24,662 bases of DNA from NCBI GenBank assembly GCA_964354495.1, contig CAYHAA010000024.1, positions 1-24,662 on the forward strand. Direction: 5' to 3'. Origin of the DNA: an uncultured archaeon (GTDB taxonomy: Archaea > Asgardarchaeota > Thorarchaeia > Thorarchaeales > Thorarchaeaceae). Made by a program: the position numbers. The number at the start of each line of letters is the position of its first letter. Position 1 is the first letter of the stretch. This document shows positions 21,001 to 24,662 of the stretch, in pieces.

Positions 21001-24000
21001 AGCAGTGTTAAGGGCACGTCTTCGAAGAACACCACAATATGAGCATGCACCCAGCGAACTAGACGGCTTACGTTGTACTATCTCATCAAGAGAGTAGCCA
21101 AACAGCGTCCTAAAGGAGAACACTTCTAGAGTGAGATCCAATGAACGAGAGAGCTCTCGAGCTGACTCAAGCGACTTGTCCCGATACCCTCTGACTCCTT
21201 CGTCAATGGTGACGGGAACTATCTCGGACTTAGGAAAAGCACTCTCTATATTGTGAAGTATATGTAGAAGAGCTGCGCTGTCCTTTCCACCAGAGACAGC
21301 CACCAGAATTCGGTCGCTCTCTAGGAACATCTTATGTCGATTGATGGCTCTTCGTACGCGGTCCACTGTCGTCTGAACCAGACATGAGCCGCACAGCTGT
21401 TCTGATGTATACCTACGCAGGTAGATGGCAGGTTTTCCACACTTTGAACATCCCGGTTGCATGACAGCGACGACTCCGAACCGCCGTATCTTGTACTGTC
21501 AAATTAAAGGTATTCAAGAGTCCCAACGGATTGCCTTTTTGCCATAGCGTTTGTGGTTTCCTTGATCCAGAGGCATCAACTTAGGTCCTACAATTCTGTT
21601 TGTTAATGATTTCAGAAGAGCCCCTTTCCCATCAATAGGCTCAGAACGATACTAAGCACTACGATTGCAAGGGCTGCAAAGCGTATTGGATACATTATAT
21701 ACCGAACCTTCTTCTCATTAGAGGTCAAGAGGCTTAGACCATTTGAAAGCAACTTGTCGCCATCTAGGAAAGGAATTGGGAGAAGGTTGAAGACTGCTAA
21801 CGAGATGAGGATGAGGTAACACCAGAAGATTATCTGTTGAGAATGGAACACAAGCATCGGAGAGAGTATGAGGTTCCAGCCTGGTCTAGGTTCCCAGTAA
21901 TCAGCCCCATAGATACCAAGGTATCCTCGCGAAGCATTCGACTCGCTCGCGGCAAGTATGAGTGTCATATTCCCATCCAGTGTATGAACAGTTACCTCGG
22001 ACCCTGCAGGAGCTCCAGTCATGAAGGCACTGACGGCGGACCAGTTAGCGATCACCGTATCATTCAGACCAATTATCACATCGCCTACCTCAAGAGCTGC
22101 AGCTGCAGGACTTCCCTCGCTTAGCTGATAGATGTACGCTCCACTCGGAGGATTGTATGCGATTGAGGCAATAGAATTGAAATTGACCAAGAGCGCGAGA
22201 AAGACGAAACTCCAGATAATATTGGAGTACGACCCGGCAGCAAGTAGGCGCATTCGAGCTTTTGGAGTCGCTTCTTTCTCGAATGCCTCCTCATCTGGCT
22301 CAACAAACGCCCCAAATAGTACTAGGAAGCCAAGTAGACCGGAGCTCTTGATTGGGATGTTGTCCTTAGATGATGCAAGTCCATGAGCAAACTCATGCGT
22401 GAGGATTGCCACTGCAAGCGCAATCAACATGTATACAAGGGGCAGTCCCGTAATCGTCACTCCCGGGATTATTGGTACAACGCCTCCTGCGGCTTCCGGT
22501 TCTACAAAGAACTTGATGAGGTTCTCACCAAACATCCAGAAGGAGAAGATCATTCCTCCAAACCCAACAACCACACCTATGTTGAAGAAGATCAGTGGGA
22601 ATTTCTTGCCCATGCGAGTCAGAAACGCATTGAGACGCTGAGTTCTCCACATGAAGAAGAAGGGAGTCCCTGCCTCAACGCCCCTCTGTTTGAGACGTTC
22701 AACACCAATGTAGTGTGCAACTGCATAGATGATGAGCCAGAAGAGCCCTATGAGTCCGAAAGCAAGCAAGGTACTATCCATTAGTCACTGCACGTCCAAC
22801 TGGAATTTAGTGAAGAAAACAGTGGAGGGCGTTATAATGGTTGTGACATAGCTACATTCGACCAAGTCCAAAAATGGGCTCGACCCGACCGCAACCCTCA
22901 TAAAGTGACCTCTTTAGCCTAGCGCTGATGTCCAATAGGACTCACATTATAGATCTAGGTAGGCGATACAATAGTTGCCGTTCAAGCTTGTGATTTCAGA
23001 CCCTGAAACTGGAAAAGCCATCCAGTACGAACTAGATGATGCAAAGACAAATGCTATGGTCGGGAAGCATGTTGGTGATATGGTAGAGGGCGATATGTTG
23101 GGCCTACCAGGATACAAGCTGAAGATCACAGGCGGTAGCGATTCTGCAGGATTCCCGATTCGCCCAGATGTTCATGGAAGTGGAAAGAAGCGGCTTCTGA
23201 TTCGAAGCGCTCCTGGTTTCAGACCAACTAGAAAGGGAACAGGAAAGCGGAAGACAGTACGTGGAAGAGAATTGAGTTCTGCTATTTCCCAAGTGAATAT
23301 GCGAGTCGAGGAGAAGGGTGCAACGCCCCTTGAAGAGCTCGTCATGAAAACTGTATAAATAGTGTCTCTCATATTATCAGATTACAGGGTTAGTGTGAAC
23401 CATATACTTCTTCTGACCTACATCTTACATTTTGGTGAGTGAACATCAACTGTAAGAAATTTCTATGTTCCACCCTTCTCCTGCCAGTGTCACCACCTCT
23501 TCGTAATTCCAAGGAACTACAAAAATTGGCAAGAGCTTTGTCAACGTTCATAGGGATGGGATCCCTCCTGAAGACCTGGCTTCTTTCTCCTGTCTTACTA
23601 CTGACACATCACTACCAGCAACAGAGAGTTTTTCCACAGTTCTTACCACGGCGGGGTCATTATCACTCTTACTAGTCCCATCGCTGAAACTAACAAGGTC
23701 CGATTGGACAAAATGAACAGCCGCGGACTCTCCAGAACTTGATGTTGGTTCTTTCTTGGAGAGTAAAGACTTCCCTTGAGAAGAAGATATCTTCTTTTGG
23801 GCTTTCGGCCGCGCACGTCGGACCTTATCCAGAGTCCTAGTCCACAGACCTAGTCCTCTCACAGAGTGCAGTGACTTTGTGAGCGTAAGAAAGCGTGCTG
23901 CAATGTTAGTACTACCGTTTTGGTCAGCATTGATACTATAACCACAAGATGGACAATGAAAATAGTTCTGGCTGGGTCTCTCTCCCTTTGCACCACACTT

Positions 24001-24662
24001 CCAACACATGATGGAGGTCCATGCCTCAGGAACTGCTCTGAATCGAGCGTCTTTTCCATCGACATTCCAACCTTGCTGTGCAAGTCCATGTTTCAGACTT
24101 TCGGTTATCCGGGCAAAGGCCCAGGAATGTATCATTCCTCGAAACCTTCGCCCTCGGTAGTTTCCTCGCTTAGCACGCATTCGTATATTTTTCAGGCGAC
24201 CAATAGCAACATAGAGTGTGTATTCATTGGATAATTCGAAGATGTAATCCAGCAGTTGACGAACAAGAAATCGATCATATTCGCGAGCAAGATTCTCCCG
24301 CTTGGAACGCATTTGACGGAGTTTCTCGACAACCCTATCATATGATAGACCATTGTTTCTTCGAGTGTACATCTCTCTCTGTAAATCTGCAACAAGTCTG
24401 TCGTACTCTATGATGACCTTGACCTTCTCCCTGTGGACAAAGTAGCGGGTTTCCCTTGTTTTCTCAGGCGTGAGGAGGGTTGCACAAGCTGCCTTCTCAA
24501 TTCCAAGGTCAATACCAAGAATGGCAACAGGAAGAATTACCTTAGAGGATTCATCAATAGGAATTCTAACAGCAATAGTCACCCACCATTTCATGAAACG
24601 GTCTGTGAAGATTTGTACTGCCTTGACCTCACCCCTTTTGATTTGGTTCAGATGGAAGGGAG

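What the first reader, a model, noticed from the sequence alone, without database searches (positions are those of the whole stretch)
23930..24520. TnpB with Fanzor-type rearranged catalytic site in a likely Asgard genome
The canonical RuvC-II Glu is Gly (VAIGRL, GGT at 24199-24201), and a Glu sits 58 codons downstream at the position that is Pro in canonical TnpB (VPEAWTS, GAG at 24025-24027, versus VNPAWTS in the other TnpB of this window). Both Asp residues are intact. This is the rearrangement described for Fanzors and their TnpB relatives, so the protein is probably active rather than dead. An Asgard member, possibly IS607-type, is relevant to Fanzor origins and as a compact editor.
Basis: partly seen in the sequence, partly recalled or inferred. 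Interest (0 to 1): 0.75.

Follow-up and report, generated by a model that had tools for sequence, protein, structure and literature searches.

The report
Truncated Asgard TnpB, shifted catalytic glutamate
The gene is the 3' two-thirds of an RNA-guided TnpB nuclease of a Thorarchaeota (Asgard) genome; it does carry the shifted catalytic glutamate, but that arrangement is already described for this Asgard family, it is not of the Fanzor lineage, and this copy is a broken remnant of a decayed mobile element.

Summary
On the minus strand, Gly (GGT, 24199-24201) occupies the canonical RuvC-II Glu position. A Glu (GAG, 24025-24027) lies 58 codons downstream, six residues before the first CxxC of the zinc finger. 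Both Asp residues are present.

This layout is family-wide. In 54 relatives D, E(alt), D and three of the four zinc-finger Cys are invariant; the fourth Cys and Gly are at least 90% conserved. Homologues that keep the canonical Glu lack the alternative one.

It is the published 'Ealt / TnpB2 / RIIr' arrangement. The family carries the GTTCACTCA motif reported for aCas1-associated Asgard TnpBs.

It is not Fanzor-like beyond that. RuvC-I reads DLG rather than DPG. No IS607 TnpA lies nearby. Cas12f and TnpB are its nearest solved relatives.

This copy is not a whole gene. It starts at about residue 190 of about 560. With contig C36 it forms a roughly 4-kb internally deleted element inserted between the aIF2-gamma and rps6e genes; seven relatives show the empty site.

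A covarying omega-RNA overlaps the gene's 3' end. The published 'hypervariable region' is one arm of its last hairpin.

The scan had already reported this family on other DNA of this genome. Interest is low to moderate.

The parts
23548..24662 (-). tnpB remnant. It encodes residues about 190-559 of a roughly 560-aa TnpB plus the stop codon. It is open to the contig end; the first in-frame ATG is at 24594.
   Evidence: ORF list; Pfam PF07282 TNB domain at 8e-12; 85-87% identical to 559-aa Thorarchaeota proteins; no N-terminal part anywhere in the assembly.
24508..24510 (-). RuvC-I catalytic Asp codon (GIDLG; a DLG motif, not DPG).
   Evidence: (invariant D240 of A1).
24199..24201 (-). Gly codon at the canonical RuvC-II Glu position, at the end of strand beta-4.
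   Evidence: in the AF2 model of the orthologue, strand 337-344 holds G343.
24025..24027 (-). Alternative catalytic Glu (VPEAWTS), six residues before the first CxxC and directly after strand beta-5.
   Evidence: invariant E401; fits the D{P}G...Ex6CxxC regex of Yoon et al. 2023.
23944..24006 (-). CxxC-x13-CxxC zinc finger (TNB domain).
23923..23925 (-). RuvC-III catalytic Asp codon (NADQNG), 34 residues after the alternative Glu.
   Evidence: The spacing equals Glu467-Asp501 in ApmFanzor2 (PMC11832414).
23414..23764 (-). Omega-RNA scaffold (minimum extent). It overlaps the last ~215 nt of the ORF, which encode a tail predicted disordered, and runs ~135 nt past the stop codon.
   Evidence: RNAalifold on 50 copies gives 85 pairs, 39 with compensatory changes. 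The tail 484-559 has pLDDT below 50. No Rfam family matches.
23503..23520 (-). Covarying hairpin just after the stop codon (GTAGTTCC-TTG-GAATTAC).
   Evidence: Pairs at columns 268-298 of A2 show many double changes.
23423..23459 (-). Last hairpin of the scaffold. The TCTTACA and TGTAAGA arms enclose the conserved GTTCACTCA (23436-23444) in the loop region.
   Evidence: The motif lies 100-110 nt past the last sense codon in 43 of 59 copies.
23413..23419 (-). Right end of the element (AGGTCAG). Similarity among copies stops here.
   Evidence: In relatives without the insertion, flank homology stops at 23410-23415.
23393..23412 (-). Flank next to the right end (AAGAAGTATATGGTTCACAC), the presumed guide. 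AAGAAG (23407-23412) also stands at the left junction on C36.
   Evidence: Empty-site comparison. The guide role is inferred from how TnpB systems work.

Best explanation
Window 23548-24662(-) is the 3' two-thirds of a tnpB gene. It belongs to a Thorarchaeota-wide family of about 560-aa RNA-guided nucleases.

In this family the canonical RuvC-II glutamate on strand beta-4 is replaced by glycine. A glutamate just after strand beta-5, six residues before the zinc finger, is invariant. I infer that it completes the Asp-Glu-Asp metal site, as it does in TvTnpB and the Fanzors.

Intact family members sit head-to-head with a 1,600-1,900-aa gene, presumably the 'aCas1' of the literature. They express a structured omega-RNA of at least ~350 nt that overlaps the 3' end of tnpB. 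The scaffold ends in a hairpin that holds GTTCACTCA, followed by AGGTYA. The guide is presumably the flanking DNA after that.

The copy in this window is a decayed, non-autonomous derivative. An internal deletion removed about 1,285 N-terminal codons of the giant gene, the intergenic spacer, and codons 1-189 of tnpB, which encode most of the WED and the REC part. What is left, together with a passenger methyltransferase ORF, is a roughly 4-kb insertion between the aIF2-gamma gene (contig C36) and rps6e (this window).

The nuclease fragment encoded here is therefore unlikely to work alone. Its omega-RNA and right end are intact.

Shown: the sequence features, family-wide conservation, RNA covariation, the deletion junction, and the empty sites. 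Inferred: catalytic competence of the family, the position of the guide, and the Cas1 nature of the partner.
For: Residues and spacing:
- Residues read directly from the sequence.
- Invariant D240, E401, D435 and Cys ligands, with Gly at least 90% conserved.
- Gly and the alternative Glu go together; hits that keep the canonical Glu lack the alternative one.
- The window copy fits the Ealt regex of Yoon et al..
- The E-to-D spacing of 34 residues matches ApmFz2, whose cryo-EM triad is D324/E467/D501.
- TvTnpB, which has the same rearrangement, is biochemically active (PMC10530073).

Fold:
- AF2 model of the 86%-identical full-length orthologue: pLDDT 83, with D240 on beta-1, G343 at the end of beta-4, E401 right after beta-5 and D435 at the start of a helix.
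- Foldseek gives the Cas12f/TnpB fold at E=1e-17.

Family identity:
- 63 loci, nearly all Thorarchaeota.
- GTTCACTCA downstream, as described for aCas1-TnpB loci (PMC10691335).
- Giant divergent partner at 4 of 5 full-length paralogues, and at 23 of 33 loci that have a complete tnpB 5' end and at least 1.5 kb upstream.

Omega-RNA:
- 39 of 85 predicted pairs show compensatory changes.
- The last hairpin folds in nearly all copies.

Truncation and decay:
- The contig end shares 55 nt with C36, and a stop codon lies 5 codons upstream in that join.
- The C36 ORF is the C-terminal part of a 1,772-1,777-aa giant gene that is paired with an intact tnpB in relatives.
- Seven relatives join C36:6946 directly to C24:23410-23415.
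- Seven of the 63 loci from other genomes carry the same kind of internal deletion.
Against: - No model coordinates were available, so the Glu-to-Asp distances could not be measured.
- The contig breaks exactly at the deletion junction. This suggests a fork in the assembly graph, so an allele with the whole gene may exist in the sampled population. Laid contigs of other runs extend past the window end, but their sequence there was not shown.
- dN/dS of the truncated copy (0.11-0.16) is no higher than for intact copies. Either the deletion is recent or the fragment is still under selection.
- Cas1 homology of the giant partner was not detectable. There was no Pfam Cas1 hit even at E<=10. There was no PDB sequence hit. 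The C-terminal 491 aa gave no significant fold match.
- NCBIfam's TnpB model scores 90 bits, below its cut-off of 100.
Confidence: 0.82

Rival explanations
1. The gene is whole in the organism and is cut here only by the assembly. It would then be an intact, active Ealt TnpB paired with a full giant gene.
For: The contig ends exactly at the junction. That is what a fork between two alleles, or between paralogues, would produce. The fragment shows no relaxed selection. Contigs from other runs run on beyond the window end.
Against: C36 itself carries the junction: giant-gene homology stops at 9737 and 53 nt of tnpB follow. The assembly (97.7% complete) holds no orphan N-terminal tnpB piece. Other genomes have the same kind of deletion in mid-contig. 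One of them, L051, is truncated at the same residue 190.
Confidence: 0.1
2. The 348-370-aa fragment (RuvC plus zinc finger, without most of the WED and the REC part) is a maintained short protein with a role of its own. It might regulate or partner the full-length paralogues.
For: The frame is open for 370 codons. dN/dS is about 0.13. An in-frame ATG stands at 24594. A second copy truncated at the same residue is also open (L051).
Against: The truncated loci are not orthologous, and truncation points vary: residues 131, 160, 185, 283, 295, 323 and 360 in the seven internally deleted loci. Short database proteins such as P0066 come from disrupted full-length loci. Nothing suggests a promoter. 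Open frames are expected shortly after a recent deletion.
Confidence: 0.04
3. It is a relative of the pro-Fanzor/Fanzor lineage and bears on an Asgard origin of Fanzors.
For: It shares the Ealt position and the 34-residue Glu-Asp spacing with ApmFz2. The host is Asgard.
Against: It has DLG, not DPG. It has no IS607 TnpA. The profile search finds Cas12f and TnpB but no chain named as a Fanzor. Fanzor2 ranks 29th by fold. The literature derives Fanzors from cyanobacterial IS607 TnpBs (PMC10711439). It also reports the RuvC-II change in two major clades and eight large branches of the TnpB/Cas12 tree (PMC10691335).
Confidence: 0.02
4. The family is catalytically dead, and Gly at RuvC-II means inactivation (an exapted RNA-guided binder of the TldR kind).
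For: The canonical Glu is lost.
Against: The alternative Glu and both Asp residues are invariant. The elements are multi-copy with many decayed copies, which fits a mobile element rather than a domesticated gene. The same rearrangement is active in TvTnpB and ApmFz2.
Confidence: 0.02

Closest known systems
aCas1-associated Asgard TnpB groups (Cas1H-Asgard-1/-2) of Altae-Tran et al. 2023, PNAS (PMC10691335)
   Same: The host is Asgard. A large partner gene sits next to tnpB. A region downstream of tnpB ends with the conserved GTTCACTCA motif, preceded by a conserved T and a variable stretch.
   Different: Here the variable stretch is shown to be the 5' arm of a hairpin, and conserved sequence continues ~40 nt to AGGTYA. 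It is therefore probably not the guide. Cas1 homology of the partner could not be confirmed with the tools used. This copy is an internally deleted remnant.
RuvC-II-rearranged TnpBs ('RIIr' clades of Altae-Tran 2023; 'TnpB2', e.g. Thermoplasma volcanium TvTnpB, Jiang et al. 2023, PMC10530073)
   Same: Glu is replaced by Gly at the canonical position. A compensating Glu lies about 45-60 residues downstream at the beta-5 position, just before the zinc finger.
   Different: TvTnpB is linked to an IS605 Y1 TnpA. This genome has no Y1 TnpA, and this family pairs with a giant gene. The protein is longer (~560 aa), with a disordered tail that overlaps the omega-RNA.
Fanzor2/Fanzor1 and cyanobacterial pro-Fanzors (Yoon et al. 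2023, PMC10711439; ApmFz2 structure, PMC11832414)
   Same: The alternative Glu stands six residues before CxxC. The Glu-Asp spacing is 34 residues, as in ApmFz2.
   Different: There is no DPG motif, no IS607 TnpA and no NLS. The host is archaeal. No sequence-level affinity was found.
Cas12f / typical IS200/IS605 TnpB (AsCas12f 8J12, ISDra2 8EXA, ISFba1 8IAZ)
   Same: These are the best sequence and fold matches. The WED-REC-RuvC-ZnF architecture is shared.
   Different: They keep the canonical RuvC-II Glu. Cas12f works with CRISPR arrays. Typical TnpBs pair with a Y1 TnpA.

Membership tests
TnpB/Cas12 superfamily | RuvC (RNase H-like) nuclease domain split by a CxxC...CxxC zinc finger, on a WED-REC-RuvC fold | tested here: met
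   Pfam PF07282 at 8e-12. The profile search gives Cas12f at 2e-34. Foldseek gives Cas12f/TnpB at E=1e-17 with TM 0.70 for the full-length orthologue. NCBIfam guided_TnpB scores 90 bits against a cut-off of 100. The window copy itself lacks most of the WED and the REC part.
Ealt / TnpB2 / RIIr (RuvC-II-rearranged TnpB) | Canonical RuvC-II Glu replaced by an inert residue (Gly or Pro) | tested here: met
   Gly at 24199-24201. It aligns to the Glu of solved TnpB/Cas12f chains and is at least 90% conserved in the family.
Ealt / TnpB2 / RIIr (RuvC-II-rearranged TnpB) | Conserved Glu six residues upstream of the first CxxC (regex D{P}G x120-160 E x6 CxxC x12-18 CxxC x4-8 D) | tested here: met
   The window copy and all five full-length sequences printed (the orthologue P0002 and four own-genome paralogues) match the regex. 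E401 is invariant.
Ealt / TnpB2 / RIIr (RuvC-II-rearranged TnpB) | The alternative Glu lies next to both Asp residues in 3D | not testable with these tools
   The AF2 model puts it right after beta-5, the topological place described in PMC10691335 and seen in ApmFz2. No coordinates were returned, so no distance was measured.
Fanzor / pro-Fanzor lineage | DPG motif at RuvC-I together with Ealt | tested here: not met
   DLG in the window copy. Of 54 relatives, 51 have DLG, 2 DFG and 1 DVG; none has DPG.
Fanzor / pro-Fanzor lineage | IS607 serine-recombinase TnpA partner; eukaryotic, viral or cyanobacterial host | tested here: not met
   No resolvase homologue within 8 kb in any of 63 loci. The hosts are Thorarchaeota. 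The resolvase in this window (10745-11347) lies ~12 kb from this gene, on its 3' side, beside the other, canonical TnpB.
aCas1-TnpB elements of Asgard archaea (Cas1H-Asgard groups) | Conserved GTTCACTCA downstream of tnpB, after a variable stretch | tested here: met
   The motif is at 23436-23444. It lies 100-110 nt past the last sense codon in 43 of 59 copies.
aCas1-TnpB elements of Asgard archaea (Cas1H-Asgard groups) | Adjacent Cas1-homologue gene | tested here: inconclusive
   A conserved giant divergent partner is present, and its C-terminal remnant adjoins this copy on C36. No Cas1 signal was found by Pfam, NCBIfam, PDB sequence search or the fold of the last 491 aa. The original description (Makarova 2020) could not be read.
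IS200/IS605 | Y1 (HUH) TnpA in the element or in the genome | tested here: not met
   PF01797 was not found in the 97.7%-complete genome.

The most novel reading that the evidence does not exclude
Two readings go beyond the literature and are not excluded.

(a) The 'hypervariable spacer-like region' reported beside GTTCACTCA in aCas1-TnpB loci is not the guide. It is one arm of the terminal hairpin of a very long omega-RNA (at least ~350 nt). The guide then starts after AGGTYA.

(b) Internally deleted copies such as this one keep both element ends and an intact omega-RNA. They could act as non-autonomous, guide-supplying elements, moved and protected in trans by intact copies. The apparent 6-bp AAGAAG duplication at the insertion would point to integrase-type insertion rather than IS200/IS607-type insertion.
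Probability: 0.3. Interest if true: 0.5.

Novelty: new member of a known kind. Interest (0 to 1): 0.25.

Why it matters
The shifted-glutamate active site is of interest because such enzymes (TvTnpB, Fanzors) cut their target without collateral single-strand DNA cleavage. This Asgard family is abundant and has never been tested at the bench.

This particular locus adds little to that question. The rearrangement is already published for TnpB clades that include archaeal ones. The family shows no tie to Fanzor origins. The copy is truncated, so it cannot serve as an editor.

What the locus does offer is a clean natural experiment on the element:
- a precisely bounded insertion, with empty sites in seven relatives;
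- a defined right end and a presumptive guide;
- evidence for how the omega-RNA is built.

These make the TAM and guide rule of the aCas1-TnpB elements directly testable with a full-length orthologue.

Tried and rejected
- The search for related loci with alignment A1 failed because no stretch was conserved enough. It was rerun with the single protein P0002.
- A first MAFFT L-INS-i run timed out.
- Model coordinates are not exposed in the Python box, so the Glu-Asp distances were not computed.
- Rfam search of 23300-23900 gave no match at E<=1.
- Sequencing runs: the best holders carry only 60% of the sampled words. Laid Logan contigs cover the gene and run past the window end, but the output does not show what lies there, so the junction could not be checked. 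No RNA run held more than 6% of the words, so nothing can be said about expression.
- Giant partner: Pfam (also at E<=10), NCBIfam, PDB sequence search, ESM Atlas (best score 0.75, AAA_22, below the useful range) and Foldseek on the C-terminal 491 aa (best E=0.035, scattered RNase H-like and other hits) gave nothing usable. Pfam Cas1 was not found in the genome.
- Makarova et al. 2020 (PMC7307682) is not held.
- The left-end sequence of this copy (GTTCTGACATGTGACC...) is not conserved at other copies, so no common left terminus or inverted repeat was defined.
- I first took three loci (L049, L052, L053) to share this copy's 5' boundary. That was an artefact of using the truncated copy as the query. 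Only L051 shares it.
- No tree with Fanzors was built, because no Fanzor sequence was obtainable through the tools.
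Full report
**What is in the sequence.** The finding lies on the minus strand in an ORF that runs from the stop codon at 23548-23550 to the very end of the window. The window is a whole contig, C24 of a 51-contig genome that is 97.7% complete.

- Gly (GGT, 24199-24201) in LYVAIGRLK.
- Glu (GAG, 24025-24027) in AVPEAWTSIMCWKCG, 58 codons further on.
- RuvC-I Asp in GIDLG (24508-24510).
- RuvC-III Asp in NADQNG (23923-23925).
- A CxxC-x13-CxxC zinc finger between the last two.

Pfam sees only the Cas12f1-like TNB domain. In HMM alignments to solved TnpB/Cas12f chains, the Gly falls on the canonical catalytic Glu and the Glu falls on the Pro of the usual V-D/N-P-x-Y-T-S motif. 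The other TnpB of the window (12318-13832, +) is canonical, with FEDL and VNPAWTS.

**Is the pattern meaningful?** Yes.

The protein has 534 database relatives at E<=0.001. The 120 best hits are 73-87% identical; most are full-length at about 560 aa, and every organism-bearing name among them is Thorarchaeota. A search of 1.8 billion 50%-identity representatives found 1,121 hits at E<=0.001 and 66 at E<=1e-30.

In an alignment of 54 diverse members, D240, E401, D435 and three of the four zinc-finger Cys (C408, C411, C425) are invariant. The fourth Cys (C428) and G343 are at least 90% conserved. Numbering follows the 86%-identical full-length orthologue P0002.

Among the representatives, every sequence with Gly, or another non-acidic residue, at RuvC-II has Glu in 'xxExWTS'. 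The three hits that keep the canonical Glu have Ala or Pro there instead.

The layout fits the operational definition of the alternative glutamate ('Ealt') by Yoon et al. 2023, which is Glu six residues before the first CxxC. The window copy matches their regular expression D{P}G-x(120-160)-E-x6-CxxC-x(12-18)-CxxC-x(4-8)-D. The Glu-to-Asp(III) spacing is 34 residues, the same as Glu467-Asp501 in the cryo-EM structure of ApmFanzor2, where that Glu is part of the metal-binding triad.

An AlphaFold2 model of P0002 (pLDDT 83, pTM 0.77) places the residues as follows:
- D240 on beta-1.
- G343 at the end of beta-4.
- E401 immediately after beta-5.
- D435 at the start of the following helix.

This is the beta-4 to beta-5 relocation described by Altae-Tran et al. 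2023. I could not measure distances because the tools return no coordinates. Spatial proximity is therefore inferred, not shown.

**What family is it?** The arrangement is already known.
- Altae-Tran et al. 2023 report Glu-to-Gly at RuvC-II with a compensating Glu in large TnpB clades, some nearly exclusive to archaea.
- Jiang et al. 2023 call these enzymes TnpB2. They showed that one of them, TvTnpB, cuts DNA in a TAM-dependent way without collateral activity.
- Altae-Tran et al. also describe two Asgard-linked TnpB groups associated with Cas1 homologues (aCas1). Downstream of tnpB these have a variable stretch between a conserved T and the motif GTTCACTCA.

That motif stands at 23436-23444. 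It lies 100-110 nt past the last sense codon in 43 of the 59 copies I collected.

The own genome holds five full-length paralogues (44-66% identical) and several 3' fragments. Four of the five sit head-to-head with a 1,630-1,913-aa ORF. So do 23 of the 33 loci from other genomes that have a complete tnpB 5' end and enough flank; there the giant gene starts 226-307 nt upstream.

I could not confirm that this giant protein is a Cas1 homologue. Pfam (even at E<=10), NCBIfam, PDB sequence search and the fold of its last 491 residues gave nothing significant. The original description could not be read. Earlier follow-ups in this scan reached the same family assignment on other contigs of this genome. 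I treat those notes as leads only.

**Relation to Fanzors.** The similarity stops at the position of the glutamate.
- Fanzors and their cyanobacterial pro-Fanzor ancestors combine Ealt with a DPG motif at RuvC-I and an IS607 TnpA. This family has DLG, DFG or DVG in 54 of 54 members.
- No serine-recombinase homologue lies within 8 kb in any of the 63 loci.
- The genome has no Y1 TnpA at all.
- Its two resolvase genes lie elsewhere. One is in this window at 10745-11347, beside the canonical TnpB.
- A family profile finds AsCas12f at 2e-34 and ISDra2 TnpB at 6e-8 among PDB sequences, but no chain named as a Fanzor at E<=1.
- By fold, Cas12f and TnpB lead and ApmFanzor2 ranks 29th.

The claimed relevance to Fanzor origins is therefore not supported. 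No tree was built, because no Fanzor sequence was obtainable through the tools.

**This copy is a remnant.** The ORF begins at residue ~190 of the family. The missing part is most of the WED and the REC part (strands and helices 6-186 of the model). No orphan N-terminal piece exists in the assembly.

The last 55 nt of the contig are identical to one end of contig C36. In that join a stop codon lies five codons upstream of the window end. The adjoining 491-aa ORF of C36 reads away from tnpB.

In relatives of the same genus, the orthologue of this ORF is the C-terminal part of a 1,772-1,777-aa giant gene paired with a full-length tnpB. Homology to C36 stops at exactly the point where the tnpB sequence starts.

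The locus is therefore an element with an internal deletion. The deletion removed about 1,285 codons of the giant gene, the spacer, and 189 codons of tnpB.

Seven of the 63 loci from other genomes show the same kind of internal deletion, with other breakpoints. One locus, L051, is truncated at the same tnpB residue in unrelated surroundings, next to a triplicated CCCTTCC motif.

Synteny settles the contig adjacency. In seven relatives the rps6e flank of this window, up to 23410-23415, is joined directly to C36 position 6946, next to the aIF2-gamma gene. The G000 insertion is thus ~4.0 kb. It also carries a methyltransferase ORF found in no other copy. AAGAAG stands on both sides of the insertion but only once in the empty sites.

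One caveat remains. The contigs break exactly at the junction, which hints at a fork in the assembly graph, so an intact allele may co-exist. Public contigs laid on the window could not decide this.

Pairwise dN/dS is 0.10-0.17 for truncated and intact copies alike. The deletion is therefore recent, or the fragment is still constrained.

**The RNA.** I aligned 50 copies over the last 240 nt of the ORF plus 150 nt downstream. The consensus structure has 85 pairs, 39 of them with compensatory double changes. Much of this lies under the conserved C-terminal tail, which the protein model predicts to be disordered. That explains why 3' gene fragments are so well preserved.

The 'variable stretch' before GTTCACTCA pairs with the sequence after it. 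In this window the arms are TCTTACA and TGTAAGA. Other copies show compensatory variants such as CTTTCA/TGAAAG and CAACAGT/ACTGTT. Own arms pair better than arms swapped between copies: 7.0 versus 6.5 bp, reached in 8 of 2,000 permutations. Relatedness inflates this test.

Conservation continues to AGGTYA and then stops. This is also where flank homology to the empty sites begins. The right end of the element is therefore at about 23413. By analogy with other TnpB systems, the guide should be the flank AAGAAGTATATGGTTCAC... That last step is inference. No Rfam family matches.

**Verdict.** The feature is a published one. The Fanzor and IS607 links fail their defining tests. This copy is a decayed, probably non-functional gene fragment inside an internally deleted aCas1-type TnpB element.

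The modest added value lies in three things: the bounded insertion with its empty sites, the hairpin reading of the published 'hypervariable region', and the recurrent internal-deletion derivatives.

Noticed in passing
window 10745-13832: A second, unrelated TnpB unit. It has an IS607-type serine recombinase (10745-11347, +; Resolvase at 2e-21), a 320-aa ORF of unknown function on the opposite strand (11350-12312), and a 504-aa TnpB with a canonical site (GVDRG, FEDL, VNPAWTS, HADVN; 12318-13832, +). A near-identical resolvase (86%) lies on C22, next to a C-terminal fragment of a giant gene.
   Followed up: partly
L010 (C36) 6947-8299: The left part of the insertion carries a 296-aa SAM-methyltransferase ORF (7388-8278; Methyltransf_11 at 1e-8) found in no other copy. 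It also carries a ~100-nt duplicate of part of the giant gene's 3' region (7239-7344, similar to 8762-8867). This is either a passenger gene or a rearrangement inside the decayed element.
   Followed up: partly
window 23407-23412 and L010 (C36) 6941-6946: AAGAAG flanks the insertion on both sides but occurs once in the empty sites of seven relatives. It looks like a 6-bp target-site duplication, which IS200/IS605 and IS607 elements do not make. This is a single instance and could be chance.
   Followed up: partly
L051:7960-8010: A tnpB copy in another Thorarchaeota genome is truncated at the same residue (~190) as the window copy, but in unrelated flanks. It is preceded by three tandem copies of (A)TTGCCCTTCC. 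The CCCTTCCAT site may be a hotspot for breakage or slippage.
   Followed up: no
L049, L055, L062, L065, L070, L072, L073: Seven of the 63 related loci are internally deleted elements. In each, the C-terminal rest of the giant gene abuts a 5'-truncated tnpB. Both element ends are kept, as in non-autonomous derivatives of DNA transposons.
   Followed up: partly
G000 contigs C1, C3, C7, C44, C22: The giant-gene family has at least eight copies in this genome. Some (for example C7:25207-28146) lie next to other, more distant TnpB-like genes (TNB-domain hit at C7:28308-28469).
   Followed up: no
window 23548-23790 (protein tail): The last ~76 residues of the protein (GESAAVHFVQ...QEKEARSSGGIPS) are conserved but predicted disordered. 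Their conservation seems to be driven by the overlapping omega-RNA stems rather than by the protein.
   Followed up: partly
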